A stretch of DNA of 64,000 bases. Origin: Amphiscolops sp. MND2022 (taxonomy: Eukaryota). Both the position numbers and the translations under genes were made by a program. The notes below the pieces were generated by a model, which saw only the letters and a list, made by a program, of their open reading frames with translations, was not told where the DNA came from and did no database searches. The stretch's first letter is position 1. Every line of letters begins with the position of its first letter. Positions 23,601-56,133 of this stretch are shown piece by piece. Where the stretch lies: contig OZ076409.1 in the NCBI GenBank assembly GCA_964187785.1, forward strand, positions 43,464,001 through 43,528,000. The letters are read 5' to 3'.

Positions 23601-26600
23601 TAAGAGACCCGGGTCTTTAGAAGACGAAGATGAGGAAGAGTAACTCGAAGAACTGCAACAAAAGAGCATCATGATCACGTAACAACTGTCAGTCGCCATC
23701 ATAAGGATATAGTGTTTTCCAGAGCAAAAAATTGAAGATTCATCTTTGAAGATCGATCGTTTTGGGGGAAAATTTTCAAAACTAGTGGTCTTGATTTACA
23801 GAAATTTGAAAACATCGAAAGCCGCAAACCTACATTGAGGTGTCTTTGACTGCGTGGTTGTTGAAGTCGACTGCACGTGCAAGAGTCCCCACTGACTTGA
23901 TCGTGGACACAACAGCTCCGATGGCTGCCCCTGACAGCCCATTGTCAGGATTCCACACCAGCTCATCCAACTGCTGCCCTGCTCTGTAATCCTTTTTGAT
24001 TCTACCCGCCTCTCGCTATAATGCAAACCGATCGATATTAAAAACAAACAAGTCAGGAACGGCCCTATTCGGCACCGCACAAGGTTCAAAAAAACGTTTT
24101 TTAGGTATGCAAAGACACTATTGTGGGGACTATATCAAATCTACAGTGCCGGAAAATACCCGAAGAGACACCATAAGGCTCAAAAACCGCTTTTTTCCCA
24201 ACTGGAAACTGAAATTCAAAAAATTTTCTTCCGGAAAAGTCTCATAGTGCTGAAAAAGGAGCTTCAGGCTCGCCAAGAGCTCTTTTCAGGCCAAAAAAAA
24301 TATGAAAGTAAAGGGGTTGGACAATCTTAATTGCTCAAAATTGAACTGTTATTGATTTAAATATGTTATGAACAAACTCATGAAAACTTAAAGTTGACTT
24401 CCTGAATGAAATGATTTCATATCCACTTCAGATCTGTTTGAGTAATTATTCCCGCCAGTCGGTCTAATTAACTCTCTTTTCTCTCAAGAAAAAAACGTTT
24501 TCAGCTTCTAACAGCTTCAATTCAAATAGCTTTAGTTATGGCGAAGCCATTTATGGTCCTGTACCGACCCTGACAGAAACCAGAGATAGTGATTTACACT
24601 ACGCGTGTTCATTAAATTTCTGTTGTTATTATCGAAAAAAATAACTGGTTAGCTAGAAGGACGAAAACTAGAAAACAGTATCGGGAACAATCTCCGACGA
24701 AACAAAGAAACTGACAATTGCTCAAAAACTTCAGTCAATGTCAAAAATCAACCTGGAGAATCAGCTTCAGAGATGGCAAGTGCTTTTAAGCCCAAACCAA
24801 AACGAGCTAAGAAGCCTTCAAGAATCGATCGACATTGCTTCGAAGAAATAGTTTTGGCTCAAATATCTGATGTACAGGCGGAAGAATTCATCAAGGAAAG
24901 TTCTGATTTGATGTCCAAGGCTACATGGGCGATGTCTGAGATAAAGACACAGCTTACAGCTTTGACAGCGGTTTCTACAGCAGCGCCGTTTCACACTGAC
25001 TACACAAGCAGTTTCACAAGCAGTTTCACACTGACTACACAAGCAATATTCGATCTTGTCGGTCACCTAAAGGAACAAGGGATACAGAATGTGCATGTGC
25101 TGGGCATCCTGAAAAGAAGCTGTAAAGCGGATCCCAACAAAACTCGTTCTCAAATGAGTGGAACTTCTAATCCCCCTCTTAGAAGAAGAGACGCATGCAA
25201 GCCAGGTGAAAACGACAGCATCCGCTTGGTCAACGATGCCCTGAGACAGAACGAGGAAGTACACAGGTACAAGTTTGTCGGCGTTGGCGACCTTTGCTCC
25301 AGGTCGTTCTACAAACCTGATGGCGTGCACCTGAACTCCACTGGAGTTTCACGCCTTGCAAAGATCTTAAGGAAGTCGTGCCTCTGATGGTGCGGCCCGT
25401 GGTGTCGTGGTGAGGGGACCTGGCCCAAGCTGCTGCTCCCCCATTGTTCCGCCGCGGGCAACATACTACAGGAGACACTTTTAGGAGCGACACCCAGCCC
25501 GGATGTGTATCTGTGTGTGTGTGCTTCCTCAAGACACGCGTCAAGCCTGCGTCTGATTCACCTGATGACTATCGAAACCAAACCCGGTCCCAAACCCTGG
25601 GAATGCCCGATTTGTTTGAGGAACATCAACGATCGGAAAGAAACAAGCGTTTGGTGCATCTACGGGGGATATGTACACCTGAAATGCACTAACCTGGTTA
25701 GTGAAAAACAAATTCACGGGGATTTCATCTGCGAGAAATGTTCTTGGTGCAGCTTGAACAACATAGAGACGCATACCACTACTTGTGCTGACCCATGCAC
25801 ACAGACCGAGGAGGACCTGGCCTCAGCTGCTGCTCCCCTAAAGTCTTGTGCCTCCGCTTACTCAGACAGTAGTGTGACTGCCGATGAGGACCTGGCCTTA
25901 GCTGCTGCTCCCCAAAAGCAGAACTGCACTCACTGTTACAGCTGCAACCTCAAACTCAAGAATAATCAGCCATACCTACGATGCCAGAAGTGTGAGAACT
26001 GCTGCCACAAACAAGAAAAGTGCAGCAAAATCTCCAGATATGGCTGTCTAACTTCTTGGACCTGTAATGAACATGACGGAAAGACTGCTGAGTCTGATGT
26101 GCCGCAAACCTGAGCAAAGACCGGCGATTGCTGTTCCCGATGCAATGAACCGCTTCGAGTGGGCCAACCAGCACTACAGTGCTCCGCGAAAGATTGCACC
26201 GCTATGTGCCACAAAAAGGAACCCTGTAGTGGCATCGGACGCTACAGCAATGCCCTCTGGAAATGCCCCAGCCATTCTCAAACGATTGCAGGACGCCCCC
26301 TACATACGCTTGGCCAGAGGCCTGCCCCGAGTCTAAACACAAAATGCAAGCTATGTAAAGTCACCATCAAATGTAACATCAGGCCAGTGCAATGTCACGA
26401 GTGCAAAGACTGCTTCCACAAATCCTGCCTCACAAGGCAAGGACATTCAAGGGATGCCGTTGAAGTAATGAACAGTCTGGAAGAATGGATCTGCGACACG
26501 TGCGTCCCCGCCCCGCCAGCTCCAGCGCCGTCGACGACCTCAACGCTGGATGACGCCGTCGAAACCAGCCAACCCTTCAAAGGAATACGAAGAGAAAAAC

Positions 26601-29600
26601 TGAAGGCGTTACACTGGAACGCAGATGGGCTGTCAACCAAATGGCCGGAGCTCAACGAATGCCTCAAGAATGCAGACATTGACATCGCACTAATTCAGGA
26701 AACCAAGTACAAGACCAACACCAAACTTCCTGTTTTCCCAGGCTACGCTCCTATCCGTTATGAGAGGAATGGCGACGGTGGTGGCCTCCTGTGCCTGATC
26801 AAACATGATATCCCTATGTACAAACCCCATTACTGTAAACAAACAGTAGGAGGAGTAGAATCTATTACCTTCAGAGTACGGCTCGAGAAGAGGAAATGGA
26901 TCACCTTCTCTAACGTGTACATTGCCCCCAAACGACAGGGCGGGGAGGAGACAATTTACACAGACCACATCCCTGCGTCTGGACTCTGCTTTAATGCGGG
27001 GGATGTGAATGGGCACTCATTACTGTGGGATCACATTCAAGAGCCTGACAGCAGAGGAGAACGTATCGAGGAGTGGATATCCGACTGCAACTTGCACTGT
27101 GTCAACGACGGATCCCCCACCAGGACAAACAGAGCCACTGGCAATCATAGCACCCCAGACGTTTTCCTCGCTCCGTCACAGTGGCTAAACAAAGTGGGAT
27201 GGACAACCTTGGAGGACATTGGGGGATCTGATCACCTCCCTGGAATGGCCACTATCCACTGCAAGTGGAAATCTGTTGCACCACTAGAGATTAACGAGAT
27301 GGAAAAAAAACGCTGATCTGAGCGCTTTCAGTAAAGCCCTGGACGAAAAATTGAAATGGTGAAACCGCAGAAGACGATCGACAGGATAAAAGCGTTCCAC
27401 GAAGCAGTCATCGCTGCTGCCACTGAGACGGTCCCTAAGACTGCCCCAGGAAAGAAACCAACTTGTCACCTCTCAGCTAGTGTCAAAGCGCAGATAAAAA
27501 CTCGAAACAGACTCCGGCGAAGCATCGGAACAAATAGAAAGGAATGGATAGAAGCCTGTAGAGGCGTACGACAGAAAATCGAAGAGGAGAGACAAAAGAG
27601 CTGGGAGTCATTTGTTCAAGAAACCGAATTCAGCTGCGACCCAAGCAAGCTGTGGAGAGTGTTCCATGCCATTGGTGATTCCTCTCCTCCCACGCAGCCA
27701 AACGAGGCCCTCCTGGTGAATTCAAAGGTGCTCCACAGCGATCGCCAGAAAGCAGATGCGTTCGCCAAGTACTACGCACAACAGAGCAAGCTGACTTTCA
27801 CCAAGGAGGAAAGAGACACCAACAGAGCATCCAAAAAACTCCTACAGACAGCCACCGCGAGCGAAGAAAGCTCTCAAGACTTCACTGAAGCAGAACTGAA
27901 GAGAGGAATGAGACGTATAAGAACTAAGGGCGCAGCAGGCCCGGACGAAATTACTCCTGCCTTTATCAAGGCATTCGGACCGGCAGCCAGGAAAGAACTT
28001 CTCGACCTCTTCAACCGCTCGTGGAACGAAAGTGTCTGTCCACAAGTATGGCGTAACGCCACGATTATTCCCCTCTTGAAGCCAGGGAAGCCGGCATCCG
28101 AAATGTCCTCCTTCCGACCAATTAGTTTGACGTCTTGCATTGCAAAACTATTGGAGCGTCTCATTGCCACAAGGCTGATGCACATAGTTGAATCAAGGAA
28201 ACTGCTCAGCAACGCGCAATGCCGAGGGAGAAGAAATAGATGCTGTGAAGATCTGATACTGAGAATCACGCAAGCCATAAGCAACGGCTTTCAGTGCAAG
28301 AAGCCGAAAAAAACGGTGATGGTTCTGTTTGACTACTCCAAAGCCTTTGACACCGTCTGGAGACAGCAGTTGCTTATTCGACTCGCGAACAAAGGCATTC
28401 CAATGAAGTTTGTCAAGTGGTTTGCCGCCTTCCTAACAAATCGGCAAGCAAAAGTCCTGCTTGGAAGCACGGAGAGCAAGAGTGTTGAGATCAAACAAGG
28501 AGTTCCCCAAGGCTCTGTCGTCGCCCCACTCCTGTTCCTACTCTTCATCGACGACATAACAAAGGATCTGCCGACCAACCATGCCCTGTTCATAGATGAC
28601 CTGTCAATCTGGACAACTGACCACGACAAGCACAAGGCTATCGCGGCCGCTCAAGACGCAATCGACCACATAGCAGCTTGGAGCAGGAAGAATAAGTTAG
28701 GACTGAATCTGTCGAAATGCGAAACAGCAACTTTCTTTTCGGGGAACGCTGATGCGAATTGGAAACCAAGACTCACCCTCGATGGAAAGCCAGTACCGTT
28801 CAACGCGACACCTAAACTAATAGGAGTAAAACTGGACAGAACTCTCAGCTTCGGACCGCATGTTAAAGACGTAACACAAAAGATAGGGAAGAGAACTAAC
28901 CTGCTAAAGGCAGTGGGATCCCGTGAGTGGGGCTGGAAGAAGAAAACGCTTCGGAAAGTGTACGTCGCCACACAGCGCAGTGTCCTAGACTACGCAGGAG
29001 CTGCCTGGCACCCCTACCTCAGCAACACTCAGTTTCAGAAACTGGAAACGGCACAGAATAAAGCTCTGAGAGCTATTACTGGTCAATGTAGCTCGACACC
29101 AATCGAAGCATTGAGACTGGAAAGCGGCATCCCTAGCTACCGGACCCAAAGCAATAGACTCATTGCTGTGTCGCATCAAAAAGCAATCCGCAGAGAACAA
29201 GACCATCCCATGACCTCAGTGCTCCAAGATAAAGTACCACAGAGACTAAAACGAGGAAACTGGTTCACGAAAACAAACAAACTTCGCGAATTCCTACCTC
29301 CCCAAGTTCAATCAGCGAGTAACACCAGTTCAACCCCTCCACCGCCCTGGTCAGGCAAATATAACAACTGGAAGGTGTTTAGTACCGTCCTCGGCCAAAA
29401 CAAGACAGTATCCGCTGATGAAGTGAATGCCCTGATAGATTCCCACAATTGCCCCTTAGTCATCTACACTGATGGATCAGCAAGTGCTGGTATCGAAAAA
29501 GGAGGCTATGCCGCAATCTTCACCAGAGGCACAGCCGCATCCCCGACAGTTGTCAGGTCCATAAAGAAAAGGGGGAGAATGATAACGTCGTCGTATGATG

Positions 29601-32600
29601 AAGAGAAAGCGGCTCTCACAACCTGTTTGGAATATCTCAAGTTTGGAACTACCAACATGACAACAAAGTCCTGATTTGCACGGACAGCCAGTCACTGTGT
29701 AAAGCTGTTGAAAACAGCTCAACAGACACAGTCAGAATCCATCATCTACTTGACTGCTCCGCCAAGAATATTATCATCCAATGGGTTCCAGGGCACACTG
29801 CAATTGCGGGAAATGAGATTGCGGATGAAGAGGCGAAATCGGCAGCTGCCGACCTATCAGCTGAGCCCGAACCCCCATCCCTTGGTGCCGCTCTCTCTTG
29901 CATCAAACGGTCCTTCAAAGACCAGCCGCCCTCCCACCACAGAATCAGGAAGACGTACGCAGGATATTCCGAAAAACGTGAAGATCAGGTGAAATCAAGA
30001 GCTGACGCTACTTTGCTGGCCCAGTTGCGCGCTGGGCATTCCAGGCACCTCAGAGCATACGCAAGCCTGATGGACCCCAGCGTCAACCCTAACTGCCCGT
30101 CATGTGAAGAAGAGGCGCACACTCTTGAACATTGGCTAGACTGCCAATCGACTCTAGCTCTCAGACAAGAGCTACTTGGAGAAACCGAAACCCGGCTGGA
30201 ATGGCTGTCTGAGGAACCCGCCCTGTCATTGACGCTCGCCAAGAAAACACTCTTGGGCGTCAGGCGATAGCAGCCGTCCACACACACACACACACAGCAG
30301 CGCCAGATACGACCGTCAAAAATACAAGTCAGTCCAAGCTACCTCACTTCCTCACTTCAACGGCAATTACGGTGGATGGGCGTCATTCAAAGATCAATTC
30401 GAAACTGCTGTACATAGTCGCAAGCTCTCCAACGTGGAAAAGTAAGTTTATCTTGAAAGTGTGTTCACGGTCCTGCTGATTTGTTGATCAAGAATCTGGC
30501 AACAACTGATAAAAACTATCAAGTTGCACGAAAGATGCTTGAGGATGAGCTTAAGAACGAGCGACTGTACCTCAAGACATTGTTGACGAGAGTTGTAGAC
30601 GGCAAGACAGTTAACGAAGAGAATCTGACACATATACGAGCACTTTATTCAAATTTCAATGAAACAAGTCAATCAATGACAGCACAGGGATGGGTAGTGG
30701 AGAATGGTATGTGGCACCACTTGCTATTCACGAAAACGGACAAAGAGACTCAAAAGGCCTGGCAACGGAAAAACTCTGGCAGTGATTGCTTAAAGTTTGA
30801 CGATCTTTTGAAGTTTCTGGGTAACAAAATCATATCAGAAGCTAGTCTATCATGTTGTACGAAAATTCAGAAAGAGAAACCAATTCCCATCGAAGATAAA
30901 GAACCAAAAGCTTTCAAGTGTTTCTTTGAATCCTGTAATGAGCGTAACGGTCTCATGCAGTGCGAGAAATTCAAGACTGCGTCAATGAAAGATCGCAAAA
31001 ATTTTGTCAGAAAGTCGTCGTTGTGTTTCAATTGCTTACGCAAGGGACAGGTTATCAACGATTGTTCTTAAAAATCAAGGTGTAAACAATGTGATGGCAA
31101 GCATCATACCTTACTTCATGAGACCGAAAAGATTCAAAAAGTACTGAAATGTGATCTACAAGCCAATTCTTGTGATTCGAAAACTGTCTTGCTAACTGCT
31201 GAAGTAAGTGTTCCAGCATCAAATGGTAAAAAAGTGAAACTTCAAGACCTGATCGCACATGTGCTCGCATGAATGTTATCACAGCCAATGCGCAGCAGAA
31301 ACTTGGGTCGAAGATAATGGCGTCATCAGAACGAATTATTGGAGTGAATCAGAGATCTTCAATGCCGGTCAATGGTGAAATCAAAACCACTGTGTATCCA
31401 AAGAAAGGACAGCCTCTCACGTTAAACTGTGTCGTTTTGGACACTATTACTATATGTTTGAATCCAGAGGTAATTTTGCCACCGAAAAATCTTGCAACAA
31501 TTTGATTTGGCCGATCCAAAGTTCGATAAATCAGGAAAAGTGGATCTTCTGCTGGGCGAGGAAATCAACACAAAATAGTTGGTTCATCGATTCGAAAAGA
31601 ACAGAATACTTGTCTCACAGAAACATCTCTGGGGTGGATAATTGGAGGCATTGTGCCTATTTCAGCACAAAAGTCAGCCATCAAACCAGCATTCCTGACA
31701 CAATTGGACAGGAAATGATTTGAGAAAATTTGGCACCTAGAAGATTTACCAACTTACCCTGAAGCAAAGTATTCGCCCAAAGAACTAGAATGACCTGGGA
31801 ACCGCACCTTGGTTGGGACGACGACGTTGGGGCACACATAGGGAAGCTATTTCACCATTGGTTGACTTCATTAAAGCATCTGGATAACCTGGAGATACCT
31901 CGAAACATGACCAAAAATGATAACATTTTGGTCAACTTTGACGATTCGAAACTCGAGCTTCATATCTTTTGTGATGCCAGTGAAAGTGCCTACGGCTTCA
32001 GTATATATGCCCGTATGCCATTAGTAATCGAAAGAGCCTCCTCTTTGATCACAGCAAAATCCAAACTTGCACAGAAAGAACTGGAAACCCTTCCCAGATT
32101 GGAACTGTGTGCCATGAATACCGCGTCAAGGACAACAAAGGCATTTTAGAAGTACTTAGCAAGTTGGGGCTGTACCCACGACTGTATGCCTACAGTGATT
32201 CTACGATTGCACTATCTTGGGTAAAGTCACAGCCATATCGTCTCCAAACCTTTGTCGCCAACGGAGTGGTCACAATACAACAGGTTTTAAAACCTGAAAT
32301 TTGGTATCATGATCCAACAAAGCAAAATCCTGCTGATATCGCTACACACCCCATCGATTCTAAACATCTTTTAGACATGTCCCTCTGGTGGCACGGCCCC
32401 ATTTGGCTGAGCGCTCCTGGGCCCTTAGCACTCCCTGATCAACCCGATATTCTTGATCCAACACTTAAAATCAAGAAATCAAGCCAAACCTTGGTCACAA
32501 ATCAAACGGGCACTTGCAACGATGCGGGGAAAGTAAATATGGCAGCTATATCAGCGTCCACTGATCCGCAGTCAACTAGTGAAGATGACCAAAGTCAGCC

Positions 32601-44042: not shown

Positions 44043-45523
44043 CTATAAGGAGAGTTCACCAAGGTATATAGTTTTGTCGCTAGAACACGAAGATATGATC
44101 GGCTCACTGGGATGGAAATCGACTTCATTCACAGACCCCGTATGTCCAGGTAATTTATACATGATTCTCCGACTCACCACATCCCAGACATAAACGAACT
44201 TATCGGCCGAGCCACAACAAATTCTCTGACCAGAAGAATGCCAATGCGCCTTCAACAAATTTTTCTCGAAGTTGTGCTGAGCCCCTAGGAAAACTTTGAT
44301 GCACCTTTCAATGGGGGCAAAAGGGCGCACATCAAATATTCGAACTGTGTTATCCATTGCATTAGACAGAAGGTAGCAACCATCAGGACTGAGTGCCAAA
44401 CTGGTAATTGTGTCAGTGTGGCCTTTAAGAGAATTGACACAGGCGTCTCTTCGAAGATCCCATACTTTGATCTCATTGTCAATGCCACCAGAAAAGATCT
44501 GATCAACACCCTCACTGAATGCAACACTTGTCACCTGATATGTGTTGTTGAAGTTCTTCACCGCGTCTTTGCGTCTGATGTCGAACATTTTGATTGTACC
44601 ATCGTCACTACCCGTCGCTATGAACTGATCGCCCTTTCTTGTACCATCGACTGAATTTACAAATGACGTATGACCTTTCAACCTGAAAAAGTCAGTTAAC
44701 CAATCGATGTAATTCCAAATTTTGACGAACAGAGAAACGATTGTTTGAAACTGTCGAAATTTGACGGCCAGAAAACGTGAACAAAAACTTTTTTAGTCGG
44801 CGCTTCATGAAGTGAAACGCGACTATTATAGTGACTCTTTTTTTTCAATCCACCCGAACTGACCAAAATAGTTCTTAAAAGTTCTACAAAATATTATTGC
44901 ACCAAATTGCACCATTTGCCCTAGCGAACTGAACCAAAAAGGTTTTTCCTGTTTTCCCGCGTAACATACCATACCGGGCGAGACCAAAGGGTCCCCCTTT
45001 CAAATTTTTCGGCACTGCGAGACTTTTTTCGGAAACAATTTTTCCCCAAAGGGCCCCCCTTGAACTTTTTGCTGTTTTGCGACAGAATGGATGTTGAAAA
45101 CCACCAAAGGGTTCCCCCTTTCAGTTTTTCGGCAATATGAGACTTTTTTCTAAAATTTTTTTTCTCTCCAAAGGGTCCCCCTTCAGTTTCTATGATATTT
45201 TACAACAGAAGGGGTGTTTAAAAATCCCAAAGGGTCCCCCTCTCAGTTTTTCGGCGTTGAGACTTTTCGAAAATTTGTTTTTTTCTCTAAAGGGTCCCCC
45301 CTTCAACTGCGACAAAAGTGTTGGCAATTTCGGAAGTGTCCTCCCTTTTAGCGCGCCAGGGGCTCGCGCTAGCGGGCCCCGGCGCGCCACTCGGTCCATT
45401 TTTTTGCTTTTTGAGTACTGTAAATTGAAACATGGAAGTCCTTTTGCTATTTTTGAGCCTTGGATAAGGCGCCGACTTGGGCCGGTCCCGGCTTGTTTTC
45501 TCACTCCAAAGAAATGTTTCGTT

Positions 45524-45563
<40 letters not shown>

Positions 45564-48500
45564 GAGAAAGACTTAATTCTCTTTCGAGACCAAATTATTA
45601 GCACACGCTTCTGCTATATTTGCACATATTACATGTACAACAAATTAAGAACACACATAATGCATTTGAAATACTTTAACCAACAAAAATTCTAAATCTT
45701 TTTTCATGTTTTCATTGTCGAAGCCATGATGATATTGTGACGGAAAAGATAATTGACCATTTCGGCAGATTTTATGAAGAAAGCTTTCTGATGTGATAAG
45801 GTCGAGTATCCACAGTTCAGCACACTGGTTACTCCGGTCCTGATTTTTGGAAACTAATGTACGTTGAACGATCATATTTAGAGCGCCCATTGATTAAATT
45901 AGTCAGCATAACGAATGTCAAAAGCTCTATATGGTGACAAATCGGCAAAAACAGATCGATTTTAAGTTGAACTTCATAGCTTTGTTGATGGCCAAAAACA
46001 CAAAGGAAACAAGATTTTTAGAAACGCTCCATTTCTTTCAATCTTGTGATGTCGGGAAACCAAGCCGGAATACCATAAATGAGGACGGAGAGCAACTCCG
46101 CCGATAGAGGTTGAATTTTGTACGCGAAGGGGTATTGGAGGGGATTCTTGACTTCAGAGCATAAAACACTCTTCTCGCTTTGTTAAGTTGAATTTCAACA
46201 TTAATGACCCATTTAAGATCATTGGAAAAATACAAACCCAAACCCAAATCTTTATGTAATTTCACCGTCTCCAATGCTTCTGTAGATCCTAAAAAAACAA
46301 TCGGTTGACCTTTAATTGCCAAGCACTTGGTTTTATCCAGATTGGCAATCATTCCATTAGCGATATTCCAATTCCAAAGTCTTGATAAATCGTTATGGAA
46401 ATTCAGTGAAGTAAAAAGTACTTTGAGACCATCCGCAAACAACCATGGAACAGAGTCAAGAAAAATTGAGTGCAGGTCATTTATGAGTAACAGAATCAGC
46501 AAGGGGCCGAGAACCGAGCCCTGAGGCACACCACTGACAACATGAATAGCATCCGAAAAGAAATTTTCAATTTTTACGTGTTGGATGCGATCACTAAAAT
46601 AGCTTCGAAGTAGATCAACAAGATCACTATCCAAACCAAATCTAAAGAGCTGAGACAAAAGAATTGAATGAGGAACTTTGTTACATGCTTTTTCATTATC
46701 CCGGTAGTTACTGATTATATTCCTGGGACCTCTTTTGTGTAGGGGACGAACATATGCCACTTTCCAAACGTCAGGATAGATACGTGTGAGCAAGATAGAA
46801 GCAAATAAAGGATAGAAGAGGTTCGCGAAAACTTCCGGACACATTTTCAATAATTTTGACGGTAAACAATCGGCATTAGTTATTGAAGAGTCTTTCATCT
46901 CTAAAATCAGCTTTCGTATTGTGAGCATGTTCAACGAATTCAGTATATCAGGTAACTTGACAATTGACACTGGGCACGGCAAAAGGATGAAATACAGAGT
47001 ATTGTAATTTTTTGAAACACATATTGAAGGCATTTGCTATTTCCTCACCACCAGAATAGAAACATGAATTCTGTTTCATGACAATGGGGTAAGATGTCGG
47101 GTTCAGGCAGTTCAGCAAGCGAAAGCAATCAGTGAGAGAATTCGTTCGCGCTCCACCAATGAACAGTAGACGATCCAGTTCAGCAGAGGTGTCGAAATAA
47201 TGCTGTAGAATCTCGACGTTTTTAAATTGATTTTTAGTAGGATTTTTCACATCCTTTCTTTTTGCAGTGTTCAGTTCATTTAGGCGGTGGATTGTATGAG
47301 AAGAGTAATAGAAAGGATTACCAGAGCGTTTTTTACGCTTTTTCGAGCAAGACGATGCAATATTTGTCCAGAGAAAATTGTAGATTTTTTACATTGACAG
47401 GAGAAGGGTAAGAGCTAAAAGCGAAATGAATCCAGTTGTTCTGAAATATTAGTAATTCATGGGGTTCAGATATTGCGAATTCACAAGAAATTGATCTAGG
47501 GCAAAGATATTCATCAACTTTGAAAATTATGGGATAATGATCACTCAAAATACTTTGTTTCCTTATTTGTAACAAGATAGGATAACTATGGTCATCACAG
47601 AGAATATTGTCGAGTGTATTTCCATCACGATGAGTACTCACATCAATAATAAGAGGTCGTAAGCTCCAGTTGGAAAAGAGCTGTAGATAATCATTTTCTC
47701 TGGTGCAATTACTATATATTAGATGTCAATAAGCAATCGGAGGGTTCAAATCGCCTAGAACATATAATGAATGACAGTAAACACTCAAGGGATACTTTTG
47801 TTCCAACTAACGAGTAGCTATTTCCAGTATGATTGCCATACACTCTACAGACACTTTGTACGGACTAGAATATGGCAGATAAACAAGTATAATTAGAGCT
47901 ATCGTTTTTTCACTGAGGCGAAGAGCTATAGCAACAGCAAAATCGAAATCATCCAGGTCAATTTCATCAGCTAAAAAACTGCAAGTAGTGCGACAAAAAA
48001 AAGCTACACCGCCACGAGGACCCTTCACTCTATTTTTACTCGCAACAGTTTTAAAGCATCCAAAGAGCGAATATTGTGCATACTCCTTCCACCAAGTTTC
48101 AGTAAGGAATAGAACATTTATCATTTCAGAGTTAATGAAGTCTAAGAGTTAGCATTGTTTGGATATGGAGTCGAGGCCTTGAAAATTTATGAGTAGGTAG
48201 TTCGCGTTGAAATGAAGTCAATTACAATTATCATGTCAGTTCAGTTGATTCTAGGTGTGATCGGATATCAGCAAAGGAGCAAGTGTCATCTATTTGATCG
48301 CCGTTAAAAAAGAGTTTCAGATCTCTGAAGAATTCGGATTCTGAAGAATTTCCTATCAAACCCTTCCTAAATTAGGTCATATCTGAGTTTCAAGAGTGAT
48401 TTTTCTCTTTCTCTCAGCCCATTTAAGTTTCGTTTTGACGAAATAAGTAGTTCCTTTTGGGAAGAGATTCTGGAAAAGTCCTTTTTCTACCAAGCCTTGT

Positions 48501-51500
48501 CGAACGTTTAACATAACTGGATGGGACATTCAGTTTATTCATCAAATCAGTTACGACTTTACCGTCATCATTGCTCTTTTTCACATTATAGATCACAACT
48601 GATTGAGAAGCAGTGGAGTTGTAGTCACGTTCGCCATCGATTTTTTGAGCACTGATCGAAAACTGACTTGATCATCATCAGATGCACCTGGAGTGGAACT
48701 TGAGTTATGTTTTTGTTCAAGAATATCTTTGACTTCATCAATTTTAGAGTTAATTGTTTCAAATAATGAAATGGAGGACTTAGCTTTTAAGAAGATCCAC
48801 TGTGTCTTTGAGAAGACACATGAGCCAGTCCTTTCTCAATTTATCAGTCAAAGCCTTGAATTCCTCTGGCGAGGCCCGCACCAGTTCAGCTCATCCACTT
48901 GTGGATACTATTGTCCAGAGTTCTTCTCACCAGCAGAAGTAGAATTAGCTCTTTGCTTTCCAGAATCATCCGACATTGTCAATATGAAACTATTTAATCG
49001 ATTGAAACGATTTAAGTTTATCACAACAATTAGGCTGGTGATAAAGTGATACCGGTCAACATCATGATTGGAGCCAACATACTGGCTACATATTTAATAA
49101 TTTCATATACTGAATGGCTACAATGATGGACACAAGATCTGGCAGTGTGAGCTCCAACTTGATGTGCCCTCAATGTTCCAATTCAGTAGACGAACAGGAA
49201 GAATCTATTCAATGTGACAGATTTGGCTCCTGGGTCCATCAAACCTGCACAAAAATCCCTAACGAAGCACTGGCATATATGGAAAACGAAAGTGTTTTCT
49301 GGTTCTGTCCAGATTGCTCCAAGACAATGAAGAAAATACTGAAAACCAAAGTGACGACTGAGATGGAGTTCAAGCAGGACATCAACAATCGCCTGAACGA
49401 AATCAACGCAGTTGTTTCCGAACTGAAAGCTAAGTCAGATACTAAAACTTTGAAACCGAAACCAGAAAAAACGCTATCTGAAAATAACAATAGAAGCACT
49501 TATGATAATACTTCGAACGATTCTTTGAAGTTGAACAAGATTGGTGACGTCCTTGGTGACGATGATTACGGAATAACGAACATCAGAAGGCTCGGTAAAT
49601 ATGATAGCAAGAGTTCTCGACCTCGATCCCTTCTCATCAGCTTCAATACCCCATGGACTGTTAGGAAGATTCTGGCTCGCGCTAACGCTTTGCGTCAGTA
49701 CAATTTGGATAATGGCACAACAATAGATGTACTGAAGAACTCTTCAAATACTTTCGCACTTTTAATTCGATCACAATCCCAGCCATTGTGCATCTTAAAT
49801 CGGAAGTTGCTTCGGGTGCAATTTCACAAAGTTCTTTCTCCAAGCACTTTGCTTCCAGTTACAAGGAGTCTTCTGCTTTTCGACCTGTTAAAACCGAACC
49901 TTGTTCCGACGACTTTAATACATCCGAAGATACAATCGATTTGCGAGACCATCGATTACAGAAAAGCAACTGGCCCAGACCAAATTCCTGGAATTATTTT
50001 CCAAAATTGCTCCAAGACCCTCAGCAAATCCATCAGCCAAAATTAAACAGTCTGCTGTTTTCCCCTCTGTTTGGAAAAACTCGATTGTTAGTCCTGTCCA
50101 TAAGAAAGGCTCAAAATCAGATGTTCTCAACTACCGACCAGTGTCACCTCTTTGCATAATCTCAAAAATTTTTGAACGTTGGCTTTTTCTGTATTTGTAT
50201 CCTCTTCTTGAACCGCTGTTTCATCCTGCACAATATGGCTTCCGCAAAGGTAGATCCTGTATCCTACAATTATTGATATATGTTGAAACGATATACAATG
50301 CACTCGAGTCGAGGCATTGTGTAGACGTAATATATACTGACTACGAGAAAGCTTTGACAACGTGGATCACGGTTTGCTTTTGATGAAGCTCTCTAAGCTT
50401 GGCATTCATTGGAAAATATTCAAACTAATTGAATCCTATCTTACGAATCGCCAACAGAGTTCGCGTTAATGGTCACTTCTCTGGAGTTACAAAAGTAACG
50501 AGTGGAGTTCCCCAAAGGTCGATTTTATCAAGTTTACTTTTTCTCGTCTATATAAATGATCTTCCTTCGTTATGCAAGTCTTCTTCACCCTTGCTTTGCG
50601 CAGATGACGCCAAAGTTATTGCAATAAATAAACAAAAACTCCATTTTCAGCTGGACTTGTCTCGTGTTAAAAGATGGAGTGATGAGCATCAACTACCACT
50701 TAATGTCAACAAATGTTCACATCTTGCCTTCCACGCTAACGATGTGGAGTTCTACTTCTCTGGAAATGGGGAATTCACAAAGTTATGACACAGAAAGATC
50801 TTGGAATTCATGTGTCTGATGATATGAAATGGAATCATCATATCAAATCTGCAATAAAGAAAGTCTCGGGGTATTCTTCATGTTGAAGAGAAGTTCTCCC
50901 AACCTCTCTCCCCCTACTAAACTGAAATTATACAAGTCAATGGTTCTACCTGTTTTGATTTATGGGAGTACATGTTGGTTTCCAAACGAGGAAAACACCA
51001 AAAACCTCTAAGGAATTCAGAAATGCCTAAAAAGGATAAACTGCACCAGCAATAGCAACTACAAAAAGCTACTACAACAAAGCCAAATTCTACCACTTTC
51101 ACTTTATTTGCAATTACAAGATCTTTTAATGCTGTCAAAAATGCTCAAAAATGCTTCGATTCATCAACCTTCATTCATCCTCAAGAACCCCCGAGAACAC
51201 TGCGAACATCCGGTGATATTCAATTCGAACAGGGAAAAAGAAAGCTTCAACTATGTGAACAAAGTTTCTTCTACCGAACAACTGCCTTGGTAAATCGTTT
51301 GCCCAAAGAGGTCCATGTCGACGAACCTGTTGGCCTCAAACAACGACTCCTTAAACACCTGTGGACTCACTTCGACAGCAAATACAACGAAATTGTCAAC
51401 TCAACATGGAAAATTTAATACGGAATCACGAACTGTGAAAGGGAGAATCTCCCCGTACCAGTCAACGACTGGTCAAATTCATAGTACTACTACTGAAAGT

Positions 51501-54500
51501 TCTCGCGGGCCCAGACTTTACAATACTCCGCTGTGAATTACTATGATAGATAGCTGAATCAGTTCCCCATTTAGCTTTCGAATTTGAGTTACTTTGAGAT
51601 TCCACGAAGACTTAAATATCGAATTTCATTGCTTATATTGCTATATTCAATACTGATGTGCAACTTTCGCGAAATTCCAACTTTGCTCTCAATAACCCGA
51701 TGAAAGAAAGAAAGAAAGAATTAAATTTTCTCTGATGCTATGTTTAAAAAATTGAACAATAGTACCAGTACAGAAGTTAAGTACAATGCAGTCAGTTTAA
51801 ATAAAATATAGCACCAGAGGGGACCCTCCAAAGGTTATTATTCCTAAACGGGGGGGACCCTCCAAACACAAGGGCATCAACAAAAAACTATGTCTGCCAG
51901 ACGTTCGCTACTTATTTTGTTTTTAATTTTCAATATCAATCTTTTAGTCTCATTTTCACCGATCGATTCATAATTGCGAGGTAATAGCTTCGTTTTTAGT
52001 AGATGATTCAGTAAGACAGTTCCACGATATTTTAGTGATTGTCGGCTAACTTGCGTTCGTGCTTCAGGTACATAAAACATATTGGAAGAAACACTCCGAG
52101 TAAAAACAAGTGAATTTTTGTGGATAAATACGCTCTTAATATTATGCAGTTGACTTTCTCTACTAGAACGCACGGCGAATTTTAATAGTTTAAATACGTA
52201 TAGATCAAAAACATTCATAATTTCGCTTCTTTTGAACAATTCATCCGATGGATATCGTCTGTTTTTAAAATATGTAATACGGAGGATTTTTTTCTGAACA
52301 AGAAATATATCATTCAGTACACTCTTCCTCGTGCACCCATATATCAAGAGTCCGTATTGGATAATTGGTTTCATGTATGTTTTATAATATCGTAACACTA
52401 CCGAACTACTGGTGAAATGCCTTAGACGGTTAATAATGGATACATGTTTAGCTAATTTATTCAGTACTCGTTTGACGTGGAAACCGTAAGTTAAATTTTT
52501 ATCAAGTAAGATACCCAGATATTTAACGTATTCAGTACATGTTATTTCAGTTTTTTTCAATACTATGCTTTCATCTTTGCAGTTTAAAAAATGGACCAAT
52601 TCAGTTTTAGGAATATTTTGACTAAGTTTATTCATAGCCATCCATCCAGGAATGTGTTCAACTTCATCTTGTAATGTAGATGTCTCATTTTTGGGTCTCG
52701 CGTAAACGCAATTAGCATCATCCGCAAAGAGAAACGGAATAATGTTTTTACACGACTTCGGGAAATCATTTACATAAATTATAAAGAGCAGTGGGCCAAG
52801 AATAAATCCTTGAGGAACGCCGCAGTCAATAAGTAATGGTTTTGAGACTTTACCGTTAATTGAAACACATTGACTTCGTTTACTTAGATATGATGTGAAC
52901 CAGTCCAAGCAAACCCCTCTGACACCGTATGCTTCGAGTTTATACAAGAGAAATTCATGGTTTATTGTATCGAAGGCTTTTTGTAAATCAAGCAAAATAC
53001 AAGAAGTATCGAGGTTAGAATTATCCCTAATCATTTCTGTAATATCGGAGAGAGCGTGGATGGGGCTCAGTTTTGACCTGAATCCAAATTGTCTTGGGTA
53101 TAATAGCTTGGGTGACTCACTTTTAGTATTTCTGCAGTCAGTCCATCTAGACCAGGTGATTTATGGTTCTTAAGATTTTTTATAATCCTCGAAATCTCAG
53201 TGCCATCAGCTGGATAAAAAAATAGTGATTTTTCATTAGTTTTTATAACATGAGTCGTGAATGGGACATTATCAATTGAAGCAGCTAAGGTTTTACTGAT
53301 GGAAACAAATTTTTCATTGAACGATTCGGCCACATCAATATCATCCGTAATCAATTCATTTTTATCATTCTTGATAACAAAGTTGGAATTTTTTGCTGCT
53401 TTACCAGTGATTTTGTTTAGTTCTTTGTAGAAACATTTAGGATTAATGATAAGCCCATTCAGACGTGAATCGTTGTATTCGCGCTTGCTTTTACGAAGCT
53501 GCTGGTGCACATTATTTCTAGCTCTTGTGTAGCGTAGCTTGTTCTGATAGGTTTTACAGCGCTTGTATCTGTGGAAACTACAATTTCTTCGAATTAAGGC
53601 CTTTTTTACTTCCTTTGTGAACCAAGGTCTTACGGCATCTTGGTGTTCTGATTGTTTTTCAACTGTGAAAGCATTAACTGCTTCCGATATTGCATTGGCA
53701 AACGATTCAGTAGATGCATTGATGTCCTGTCCTAAGTCTACAAGTTCCAGGCAATGTTTTAAGTAATTTAGATAGAGATTTGTTGAATTACCGTCCCGGA
53801 GAAACGGTCTATCCTTATTAAAATGTTGAGAACGAATGGATTTAGATTTACTTATAATCAAATCAACGTAGGTTGCAAAATGGTCTGTAATATACGTCTT
53901 GATAACTCCTAATTCCAGAGGTCTTTGGTAGTCATTATGGATTGTATGATCGATTAACGATTCTGAGTCAAGCGTTACACGGGTTGGTTCTTCGATTCCT
54001 TGGGCGCAACCATGAATTTCCAACAATTTCAGATACCTATCTGCAACAGGGTTAATATTAATTAATATTATATTATTATTAATATCGGGGGGGGGTCAAT
54101 ATTAATATCGCCTATTAGATAGTAGTTCTTAATTTGACTAAGAGACTCAAGAAGTAACTCAAACTGATCCAAGAAATCCTGTTTATTTACGGAAGGCGAA
54201 TTGTATAAGCATACAACGGTAAATTTTTCCTTATTCCTAGCGGTACAATCGACTCCAGTATAGTTTAGATCAGGAATAGAATCTTTCTGTATGTTAAGCT
54301 CCAAAAGTTCAAATGCCAGCGATTCATGGACATATATTGCAACACCTTCATTTCTTGTTGAACCAGGATCAAATTCCATAGGTGCATAGGATTCTAGTGC
54401 GTAGGCATTTTTGTCTGAGGATTCAGTCATCCATGTTTCGGACAAGCAAATAATAGACGGTTTGTTTTCACGAAAGGTATCTATATGCGTTTCTAGTTCT

Positions 54501-56133
54501 TCAAAATTGTAGTCGATAGACCTTATGTTCAAATGAAAAATTCATTCGTTCTCAACACTTTGTTCTTTTAAGTTGTTTTTATGTTTAGGCTTTGATTTTT
54601 TACGTTTCAATTTGTAAGCTAGAGGGCCCCCTAACAATAATGTAGACTACTTTTGCATACAGAGTAGACAAAATCAGGATCGCATTCATATAATTTGAAG
54701 AGGCTATCAAAGACAGTTTTTGTATCATTTTGTTGATACACCACAATTTTTTCGTTAATCATGTTAACAGAAGTTACATCTTGTCTTTGCCTCAATGTCT
54801 TAGCCAACTTTGCTCGTAGTAGCGTGAGATCATCGTTGATATAAATTTTATTTTCACTATCCTTGAGCTTCTTTTTGTTGGTCATCAGCCCGATTTTGGT
54901 CTGTCTCCTTACAAATTTTGCAATGATAGGGCGCCCTTGGCAAGGCTTCACATTTCTGCTGGGAACCCTATGGCAGATGCTGATGTCCGCTCTGGATACC
55001 TGACATCCCGCCTTTTCTGCCACATCGATCACAGCCTGATACACGTCCTCATTTGGTGCCTCCTCCACCCCAAATATGCGGACATTGTCCCGCCTTCCAT
55101 ATTGCTGGTTTGAATCGGCATTGAAAAGACTGGACAGCTCTCCGCTGATTTGAGGCTTTTCTGCAATTTTGGCAAGTTTGGACTGCAAGTCGGCCACCTC
55201 AGCTGCTGCACAGAAGCCACATAGGAAGGGGCGGTCCATGAAACCCTTGTGGATCTTTTTCGGGAGCCATGTGGGGACCCAGGATTGGCATCCCTTTCCC
55301 TTGTCGGGACCCTTGCCAGTACATTCGATTAGGTGGGTGGACCCCTCTTCGTCTGATTGAGAGCCAGTTCTAGTAGTCGGCATCGCGTCTGAAACTATTT
55401 AATAAGTTTATCACAACAATTAGGCTTGACGAGCAACATAATTGCGATATTTTATTTACAGACGAGCATTTAATTTGCGATTCGGTGTTTCATTTTTATG
55501 AATTAGTCCTCACAATGTGCGAAGGTTTCCAAATTTATTCCTATGGGACAGCTTGCAGCGCATCGACACCATGCACGTCAAGTTGCTGAGAAGCCCCCTT
55601 CAACATGTGCTACATGCTTAAATCATCGCCATTTTTGGTTCTTGTACGCACAGTCTTTCAATTCGTAGTCATGACACAAAATGGCTTCTCAATGCCAACC
55701 TTTTCATGCGCTCTCCAGTTTCTACATTCCAAACAGCACCCGTTTTGTCCGTTGATGCAGTGAACATTAACTGTCCATCGTATGAAAAAGTTATTTGAAC
55801 GACTGGTCCCGTGTGTCCTTTCAGAACAGCGAAATTGTCACATTCCCCATACACATTCCACAAATATATCAATCGATCAAATGCACCCGAACACAAAATT
55901 TGACCATTCGGATGAAATCTGGTCGTTAAAATTTCGCCCTCATGACCGGTCAACATCATGATTGGAGCCAACATACTGGAAGTTCTTGCGGGCCCAGACT
56001 TTACAATACTTCGCTGTGAATTACTATGATAGATAGCTAAATCTGTTCGCGCAGATTTAGTTTGAACAGGGACAATAGCGGCGGTGTCCATAGCCAAGGG
56101 ATATGAAATATTCCCGTTAATTTGCTGCATCAT
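44043..56133 (-). CDS. SNRNP40: U5 snRNP 40 kDa WD40 protein, 2 coding exons (56133-55700 and 44682-44043; alternative start 56091), 11-kb intron
   Basis: RTSSMLAPIMMLTGHEGEI, LWNVYGECDNFAVLKGHTG, GAQHNFEKNLLK, YKLPGHTGSVNEVDFHP, SSDKTIYLGEL; junction AG|gt...ag|G restores MKRLKGHTSFVNS. Confidence 0.95.
44793..45497 (+). mobile_element. Family A HINE in the SNRNP40 intron
   Basis: TTAGTCGGCGCTTCATGAAGTGAAACGCGACT ... GGCGCCGACTTGGGCCGGTCCCGGCTTGTT; internal AAAGGGTCCCCC repeats. Confidence 0.85.
45525..45567. repeat. (AG)n microsatellite, possibly the 3' tail of the adjacent minus-strand LINE
   Basis: About 21 AG units with one interruption. Confidence 0.9.
45568..49036 (-). mobile_element. 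Degenerate CR1/L2-group LINE (ORF1, APE, RT) with SL-like 5' end
   Basis: APE FLTETW, GGVAF, GNTLD, SDHYPI; RT SGVPQGSVLGPLL, FADG; degenerate ORF1 from the ATG at 48976. Confidence 0.85.
48990..49036 (-). other. Spliced-leader-like sequence, interrupted by a ~15-nt insertion, at the 5' end of a LINE
   Basis: AGCCTAATTGTTGTGATAAACTT[AAATCGTTTCAATCG]ATTAAATAG; identical outside the insert to 55426-55395. Confidence 0.6.
49051..51565 (-). pseudogene. Duplicated ~100-nt fragment of SNRNP40 exon 1 (49051-49085 plus 51491-51565), split by a LINE
   Basis: ACCGGTCAACATCATGATTGGAGCCAACATACTGG and AAGTTCTCGCGGGCCCAGACTTTACAATACTCCGCTGTGAATTACTATGATAGATAGCT match 55945-56047 with few substitutions. 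Confidence 0.85.
49086..51490 (+). mobile_element. CR1-group LINE with PHD-type ORF1, internal deletion (APE missing), frameshifted RT, (TAC)n tail
   Basis: CPQC...IQCD...WVHQTC...WFCPDC; IRRLGKYD..RPRSLL; KATGPDQI, QYGFRKGRSC, SGVPQ, CADD; TSD TACTG(G/A) at 49080-49085 and 51491-51496. Confidence 0.88.
51877..54532 (-). pseudogene. LINE ORF2 (APE-RT), broken into three pieces
   Basis: ORFs 54068..54532, 53067..54026 and 51877..53034; one break lies at the G run ~54087-54096. Confidence 0.88.
54631..55383 (-). CDS. LINE ORF1 protein, 250 aa (Cys motif, coiled coil, RRM-like domain)
   Basis: QQYGRRDNVRIFGVEE, ISICHRV, PIIAKFVRR, IYINDDLT are typical of CR1/L2-group ORF1. Confidence 0.85.
   Translation of the reverse strand: MPTTRTGSQSDEEGSTHLIECTGKGPDKGKGCQSWVPTWLPKKIHKGFMDRPFLCGFCAAAEVADLQSKLAKIAEKPQISGELSSLFNADSNQQYGRRDNVRIFGVEEAPNEDVYQAVIDVAEKAGCQVSRADISICHRVPSRNVKPCQGRPIIAKFVRRQTKIGLMTNKKKLKDSENKIYINDDLTLLRAKLAKTLRQRQDVTSVNMINEKIVVYQQNDTKTVFDSLFKLYECDPDFVYSVCKSSLHYC
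55395..55426 (-). other. Spliced-leader-like 32-mer at the LINE 5' end
   Basis: AGCCTAATTGTTGTGATAAACTTATTAAATAG, ends in AG, 11 nt upstream of the ORF1 ATG; second copy at 49036-48990. Confidence 0.65.

What the first reader, a model, noticed from the sequence alone, without database searches (positions are those of the whole stretch)
55381..55426. Full-length LINE begins with a spliced-leader-like 32-mer: candidate retrotransposon mobilised as an SL trans-spliced mRNA
Seen: the LINE at 51702-55426 starts AGCCTAATTGTTGTGATAAACTTATTAAATAG-TTTCAGACGCG-ATG, leaving essentially no 5' UTR or internal promoter of its own. The same sequence precedes ORF1 of a dissimilar LINE at 49036-48990. Established: SL exons are short, AU-rich, often end in AG and are joined close to the start codon; SL trans-splicing is reported in acoels. 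I recall an acoel SL resembling this sequence but cannot verify it. Inference: the LINE RNA was trans-spliced and copied to its capped 5' end. Such copies would lose their outron and promoter and depend on host read-through; this copy is in sense orientation in the SNRNP40 intron. The TTTCAG after the leader could also act as a renewable acceptor.
Basis: partly seen in the sequence, partly recalled or inferred. Interest (0 to 1): 0.88.

Follow-up and report, generated by a model that had tools for sequence, protein, structure and literature searches.

The report
Acoel LINEs start with spliced leader
In this acoel-worm genome many unrelated LINE jumping genes begin with the exact 32-letter leader that the cell splices onto its messenger RNAs, and junction variants show that their RNA keeps being leader-spliced before it is copied back into the genome, so they may manage without a promoter of their own.

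Summary
Confirmed and genome-wide. The 32-mer is the published Symsagittifera roscoffensis spliced leader (SL), apart from one base at each end. Of 1709 exact cores, 1195 are followed by a GTA donor (SL RNA genes, 5S-linked where seen); 514 are not. In a 58-site sample, 56 head LINE types from three deep ORF2 lineages. In the window's family 85 of 86 ORF1 starts carry the SL; none has an outron. About 14% of copies join the SL directly to a downstream TTTCAG acceptor; this form arose repeatedly (monophyly rejected, p=4e-5) and is nearly absent from families lacking that AG (20/142 vs 1/99, p=3e-4). So LINE RNAs are trans-spliced in recent rounds. Inferred, not shown: the other 86% are re-spliced at the leader's own AG (self-renewing); rival: the DNA leader acts as a promoter. 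SL pieces at transposons were noted in flatworms (PMC12582326, PMC5832876), and this scan found SL-headed LINEs before in dinoflagellates, Perkinsus and Euglena (unchecked). Corrections: the second site has a 15-nt insertion; the window copy's ORF2 is broken.

The parts
55395..55426 (-). 32-nt spliced-leader exon at the 5' end of the family A LINE; CTAAT at leader position 4-8 and AG only at positions 1-2 and 31-32
   Evidence: (A at leader position 1 in 86 of 95 flanks, next base upstream variable)
55389..55394 (-). TTTCAG, host-type 3' splice acceptor; skipped in the short form of the family
   Evidence: host acceptors end in TTTTTCAG
54631..55383 (-). ORF1, 250 aa, 11 nt after the leader; no Pfam family
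51877..54541 (-). ORF2 (APE-like endonuclease plus RT), broken in this copy: three open stretches and a 216-nt deletion
   Evidence: intact copy L179 has RVT_1, a weak Exo_endo_phos hit and matches L1 ORF2p over residues 59-780
51702..51720 (-). (TTTC)n 3' tail; 3-nt candidate target duplication shared with the 5' flank
48990..49036 (-). Second leader, interrupted by 15 extra letters, followed by TTTCAT and an ATG at 48976 of another LINE (tail near 45517-45575)
49091..49113 (+). Degenerate leader 3' end in front of ORF1 (49114) of a third LINE; its one relative L216 has a clipped leader with 2 mismatches
55700..56133 (-). SNRNP40 exon 1 (host gene); T-rich AG acceptor at 56154-56153 just upstream
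44043..44682 (-). SNRNP40 exon 2 (host gene)

Best explanation
Many LINE families of this acoel use the host's SL trans-splicing to make their transposition RNA. Shown: the head is the SL exon, ending exactly at the splice donor; it lies inside the inserted unit; it is the 5' end of essentially every 5'-complete copy; and in recent rounds the spliceosome has repeatedly joined a fresh SL to downstream AG acceptors of these RNAs. Inferred: the cycle renews itself. A genomic copy read through from any upstream promoter presents the DNA-encoded leader as a 3' splice site (CTAAT branch-point motif 25 nt before the leader's terminal AG, no AG between); the pyrimidine tract or TTTCAG just behind it recruits the machinery; joining at the leader's own AG swaps the old leader for a new capped one and gives back the same sequence (long form, about 86%); joining at the next AG gives the short form (about 14%), which has lost the landing pad and rarely founds lineages. 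The element thus needs no internal promoter, and the cap marks where reverse transcription stops.
For: SL identity; CSE1 parent with acceptor versus SL-headed retrocopies; six unrelated host mRNA starts behind the same leader. Family census: 73 long, 12 short, 1 unclear of 86 places; 68/11/1 of 80 distinct insertions; short target duplications outside the leader. Short form needs 10 changes on a tree of 37 copies (shuffled mean 9.6), monophyly rejected p-AU 4.4e-5; also in family B on both alleles of a nearby site (4 of 27 distinct) and in J/K/S/T-type families (5 of 36), but 1 of 99 in TTTCCGG families that lack the AG; pooled p=2.6e-4. Slippage control: 14 deletions of 3 nt or more in 67 copies x 1.4 kb, all singletons, 6 AG-N4-AG sites never deleted. 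Identical leader on families whose RT is 26-47% identical to the window's in three deep lineages. Precedent for an upstream AG being preferred while the downstream AG is essential: passage in PMC2374985.
Against: Splicing at the leader's own AG leaves no sequence trace, so the long form is not shown to be re-spliced. The short fraction is about the same (14-15%) in families where the second AG is 6 or 27 nt away, and family B folds a 13-bp hairpin over the leader's AG; competition between two AGs would be expected to vary with context. The leader's end is a poor match to the host's TTTTTCAG acceptor. The dispersed-site sample was chosen by exact leader match, so families with a drifted or no leader are under-counted; one window LINE (24773-29674) showed no clear leader and no second copy. 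No raw RNA reads were available.
Confidence: 0.6

Rival explanations
1. The leader was captured by trans-splicing but is now inherited as DNA and works as an internal promoter or initiator; long-form RNAs start at leader position 1 and are not re-spliced, and only the ~14% short forms come from fresh trans-splicing.
For: Similar short fraction across contexts; anti-leader hairpins hide the leader's AG in families B, H and M; a promoter role for retroposed leaders is proposed for dinoflagellates (PMC6050394, passages); an SL exon acting as promoter element in Ascaris is recalled, not checked.
Against: Needs all 32 positions held identical to the host SL in every lineage while neighbouring bases diverge; dispersed copies lack the SL gene's upstream sequence (best 12 of 20 letters among 144 flanks); does not explain why the bases after the leader are a pyrimidine tract or acceptor.
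Confidence: 0.3
2. One or a few old captures; the short form is a recurrent reverse-transcriptase slip between two AGs near the 5' end, with no ongoing splicing.
For: 5' junctions of these LINEs often show template jumps (partial tandem leaders); AG gives 2 nt of microhomology.
Against: No recurrent deletion in the body; 1 of 99 in TTTCCGG families although they offer 3 nt of microhomology; the 27-nt skip in family B lands on the consensus acceptor.
Confidence: 0.05
3. The leader is a target-site remnant: master copies sit inside SL RNA genes and are transcribed from the SL promoter, as for SL-targeting elements.
For: SL-targeting insertions do exist in the SL-5S array of this genome; arrays can be collapsed in assemblies.
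Against: Those array insertions are preceded by only leader positions 1-12 to 1-18, not the whole exon; none of 144 dispersed flanks has the SL-gene upstream sequence; none of the family A 3' ends found continues into the SL intron; short forms would still need trans-splicing.
Confidence: 0.04

Closest known systems
SL fragments at transposable elements in parasitic flatworms (PMC12582326; PMC5832876; passages read)
   Same: Genomic SL exon sequence next to LINE or LTR elements, read by the authors as possibly coming from trans-spliced retrotransposon RNA.
   Different: There: 597 loci with partial leaders set aside, and 6 loci with chimeric assembly not excluded; no family-level census in the passages read. 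Here: whole leader on 85 of 86 copies of one family, more than 20 families, target duplications, and an AG-dependent re-splicing signature.
Dinoflagellate SL-relic retrogenes (PMC6050394, passages)
   Same: Reverse-transcribed trans-spliced RNA leaves the leader in the genome; recycling over several rounds.
   Different: Host genes moved in trans, with tandem relics as the record of each round. Here autonomous LINEs, and no leader-relic tandem at 1 mismatch or fewer; rounds are recorded by loss of the downstream acceptor instead.
SL-gene-targeting non-LTR elements (NeSL; CRE/SLACS/CZAR recalled; PMC4640811, passages)
   Same: Non-LTR retrotransposon next to SL exon sequence.
   Different: They insert into SL genes; the dispersed elements here are not site-specific and carry the whole exon up to the donor. 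A separate SL-targeting group is present in the array.
LINEs released from co-transcripts by a 5' HDV-like ribozyme, or driven by an internal promoter (L1Tc Pr77; search listings only; R2 recalled)
   Same: Same problem solved: a defined, heritable 5' end without an upstream promoter.
   Different: The 5' end is set by the host spliceosome and SL snRNP rather than by an element-encoded ribozyme or promoter; no Rfam ribozyme hit in 8 loci searched. L1Tc transcripts are described as unspliced.

Membership tests
Spliced-leader exon | Same sequence at the 5' end of unrelated mRNAs and absent from their genes | tested here: met
   Published from transcripts; CSE1 parent has an acceptor where retrocopies have the leader; six unrelated mRNA starts behind it (parent checked for 1 of 6)
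Spliced-leader exon | SL RNA gene: exon, GT donor, stem-loops, Sm site | tested here: met
   1195 cores followed by GTA; fold z -3.4 with AAUUUUUGA between stems; 904-bp repeat with 5S rRNA
Spliced-leader exon | Hypermethylated cap on the SL RNA | not testable with these tools
   Needs cap analysis
APE-type LINE | ORF1 plus ORF2 with APE endonuclease and RT | tested here: met
   L179: ORF1 255 and ORF2 983 codons open; RVT_1 strong, Exo_endo_phos below cut-off; L1 ORF2p match over 59-780, E 2e-26
APE-type LINE | 3' simple-repeat tail and target duplication, dispersed insertion | tested here: met
   (TTTC)n tails; 3-7 nt duplications seen by eye in several copies, none in others; 80 distinct flanks
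CR1/L2/Crack group | RT phylogeny with reference elements | not tested
   No reference RTs at hand; resemblance (tail, no C-terminal RNase H) is recalled
SL-gene-targeting retrotransposons (NeSL/CRE type) | Site-specific insertion into SL RNA genes | tested here: not met
   0 of 144 dispersed flanks resemble the SL-gene upstream
SL-gene-targeting retrotransposons (NeSL/CRE type) | Restriction-like endonuclease instead of APE | tested here: not met
   Family A has an N-terminal APE-like domain. Another SL-headed family (L231) has RVT_1, no APE hit and a C-terminal motif recalled as RLE-like; no PDB hit
Dinoflagellate-type SL-relic recycling | Tandem leader plus relic at 5' ends | tested here: not met
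   0 matches genome-wide at 1 mismatch or fewer; one degenerate case L204 could be a template jump

The most novel reading that the evidence does not exclude
Most non-LTR retrotransposons of this animal, across deep lineages, have given up their own promoters and run a self-renewing cycle in which the DNA copy of the spliced leader is itself the trans-splice acceptor; families tuned the bases behind it (TTTCAG landing pad, AG-less TTTCCGG or pyrimidine tracts that escape clipping, anti-leader hairpins) to keep the cycle going, and an LTR element uses the same leader as a universal landing site to swap host mRNAs.
Probability: 0.5. Interest if true: 0.88.

Novelty: new variant of a known kind. 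Interest (0 to 1): 0.74.

Why it matters
Every LINE must rebuild its 5' end after copying; the textbook answers are an internal promoter or site-specific insertion with a ribozyme. This genome shows a third route at scale in an animal, with an internal control (acceptor present or absent) showing that the host spliceosome acts on LINE RNA in recent rounds. It makes testable how promoter-less LINEs persist, whether trans-splicing shapes transposon load and orientation in introns, and whether a leader can act as its own acceptor. It also warns that genomic SL copies confound SL-site mapping in this species.

Tried and rejected
RNA evidence: only one run was offered (X1, contigs of a marine metatranscriptome, share 0.08). 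It covers the family A body at about 95-98% and the leader, with two loose ends, but contigs cannot show starts and the host exons were not covered; the loose end behind the leader has no match in G000. Not used as support. SL-variant test: a C-to-T leader variant seen in several copies occurs at 9 listed places, none followed by an SL-gene donor, so it does not trace an SL RNA pool. Tandem relic search: none. Extra G from cap copying: not seen (G in 10 of 95 at the base before the leader). Leader check for the window LINE at 24773: single copy, undecided. Hairpin with the leader in TTTCAG and TTTCCGG families: no signal (z near 0). Rfam: no ribozyme in 8 loci. Searches printed nothing (index slips) and were redone. 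Papers opened without anything bearing on the claim: PMC2566580, PMC3156134, PMC1687153 (passages). No complex prediction or structure job was needed.

Full report
Observation. The 32-mer is at window 55426-55395 (minus strand), followed by TTTCAG, five bases and the ORF1 start at 55383. It occurs once in the window at up to 3 mismatches, with none expected by chance. The element ends in a (TTTC)n tail at 51702 and lies in sense orientation in the intron (55699-44683) of a gene whose spliced product matches SNRNP40/U5-40K. The copy lacks about 216 nt and its ORF2 is split; copy L179 is open over ORF1 and a 983-aa ORF2 with RT and an APE-like start. The second site (49036-48990) is the leader interrupted by 15 letters (my notebook says 14, which is a miscount). 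A third LINE at 49114 (plus strand) has a degenerate leader end, and its one relative has a clipped leader.

The 32-mer is the spliced leader. Passages of 10.1101/2022.08.27.505549 and PMC9911081 give the Symsagittifera roscoffensis leader, rebuilt from unmapped transcript 5' ends; it equals positions 2-32 plus one A. G000 has 1709 exact 30-nt cores, 0 for the reversed control; 1195 are followed by GTA, so 514 are not. The first 100 of the GTA class lie in one array on C1, where the unit is 904 bp, holds a 5S rRNA gene and folds like an SL RNA with an Sm-type site. A CSE1 gene has a T-rich AG acceptor exactly where its two retrocopies have the leader, which fixes the 3' end at the terminal AG. 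The 5' end is the A at position 1 (86 of 95 flanks; the next base is variable).

The leader heads many LINE families. The 100 rows listed reduce to 58 distinct sites on C1 and part of C2, which I sorted by eye into about 22 downstream types. One representative each of 20 types was fetched; 18 of 20 have a same-strand LINE RT within 6 kb, 26-47% identical to the window's; types O and P are unresolved; type F resembles C. That puts 56 of 58 sites in LINE types. A tree of 21 ORF2 sequences (V, O and P left out for length or no hit) spreads them over three deep lineages. Of 20 further loci several are LINEs too, including a family with RVT_1, no APE hit and a C-terminal motif I recall as RLE-like (not confirmed). 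The sample was seeded by exact leader match, so it says nothing about families without a leader.

Family census. All 86 places that keep the family A ORF1 start (up to 2 mismatches) were inspected: 73 long form (leader, TTTCAG, exon), 12 short form (leader joined straight to the exon), 1 unclear; 68, 11 and 1 of 80 distinct insertions. None has an outron or a family 5' UTR. Short target duplications of 3-7 nt lie outside the leader in several copies with both ends (read by eye), so the leader was on the copied RNA. Partial tandem leaders at some 5' junctions fit template jumps at the RNA's end.

Trans-splicing is recurrent. On a tree of 37 copies (26 long, 11 short; 3 of 40 dropped for short coverage) the short form needs 10 changes, like shuffled labels (9.6), occurs in each successive subfamily, and one clade is rejected (p-AU 4.4e-5; branch supports are modest). 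Family B (30 of 47 places inspected; 23 long, 4 distinct short, 2 without leader) skips 27 nt to its own TTTTCAG, on both alleles of a site 12 nt away. In one search, 36 of 43 rows are TTTCAG-type: 5 short, 31 long (7 rows of other types dropped). Families with TTTCCGG, which lack the AG, give 1 short of 99. Pooled 20 of 142 against 1 of 99, Fisher p=2.6e-4; family A alone p=6.5e-4; the and 71 rows were not cleared of local duplicates. Slippage does not explain it: 14 deletions of 3 nt or more in 67 copies over 1.4 kb are all singletons and six AG-N4-AG sites are never deleted. Cis-splicing cannot remove these bases because no donor follows the genomic leader (inference from the sequence).

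How it most likely works. At least about one in seven copies of the AG-bearing families came from an RNA freshly joined to an SL. For the long form I favour re-splicing at the leader's own AG: CTAAT lies 25 nt before it with no AG between, the same motif precedes a host acceptor, and most types continue with a pyrimidine tract. PMC2374985 (passage) describes introns where the downstream AG is essential while the upstream AG is preferred at the second step. This would keep the leader identical to the host's in every lineage and make short forms mostly dead ends, as their scatter on terminal branches suggests. Against it: the step leaves no trace; the short fraction is alike in different contexts; and families B, H and M fold an arm back over the leader's 3' end (13-20 bp in B and H, z -3.8 to -6.5). 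Departures in these arms mostly keep G-U pairs (16 of 20 tallied; 3 of the 4 breaks come from one tandem-leader row; rows are related), which points to selection on the RNA. The promoter rival keeps 0.3. Masters inside SL arrays are unlikely: none of 144 dispersed flanks resembles the SL-gene upstream, and the true array insertions carry only leader positions 1-12 to 1-18.

RNA data. One contig-only run was offered; it is not used as evidence.

Relation to what is known. SL pieces at transposons were noted and read as trans-spliced retrotransposons in flatworms (PMC12582326, 597 loci with partial leaders; PMC5832876, six loci), and SL relics tag dinoflagellate retrogenes (PMC6050394); passages only, supplements not read. 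Searches listed no paper on SL-headed LINE families in acoels or on the long/short signature; Repbase and subscription journals are not covered. This scan has unchecked notes of SL-headed LINEs in dinoflagellates, Perkinsus and Euglena, none for this genome; my reading was set before them. Verdict: a real, genome-wide system; a new variant of a known kind; interest 0.74.

Noticed in passing
L252-L260; L238 with L261 (G000:C7:58582600-58596331): One LTR-type element (two 2.18-kb repeats 99.8% alike, zinc-knuckle ORF) carries at one fixed point the whole leader followed by the 5' part of six unrelated host mRNAs in 9 places: CSE1, TRPM-type SLOG, WDR36/UTP21, a nucleoside transporter, XRN and an AMP-binding ligase. 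The 5' junction is fixed, the 3' return point varies, and two copies share the last ~22 nt, which suggests serial swaps by template switching at the leader.
   Followed up: partly
L012-L030 (G000:C1:16.23-16.30 Mb): Several different elements sit inside SL genes of the SL-5S array, preceded by leader positions 1-12 to 1-18 and followed by a whole SL gene; one has RVT_1 and a weak zf-RVT hit (Tx1/L1-like by recalled motifs). A separate SL-targeting group.
   Followed up: partly
L111, L116, L007, L121, L232, L235, L237, L239, L241, L245, L247: Anti-leader arm just behind the leader forms a 10-20 bp hairpin like stem-loop I of the SL RNA, some with a GAAA loop; departures mostly keep G-U pairs. 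Function unexplained.
   Followed up: partly
L230, L231, L234, L243: Leader followed by a long pyrimidine tract without AG in families whose RT lacks an APE hit; L243 has the leader joined at an internal AG of this family; a conserved structured-looking stretch follows, with no Rfam hit.
   Followed up: partly
window 51556-51497 and 49083-49050 (minus): A duplicated piece of SNRNP40 exon 1 lies in the gene's own intron, split by the plus-strand LINE and directly abutting the second leader (read by eye).
   Followed up: no
window 24500-29674 (plus): LINE of another lineage with a weak leader-end-like stretch near 24520; no second copy found, so its status is open.
   Followed up: partly
5' junctions of 95 dispersed copies: C is the base before the leader in 30 of 95 flanks, against 15-30 at the next three positions; unexplained, perhaps target-site microhomology.
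   Followed up: no
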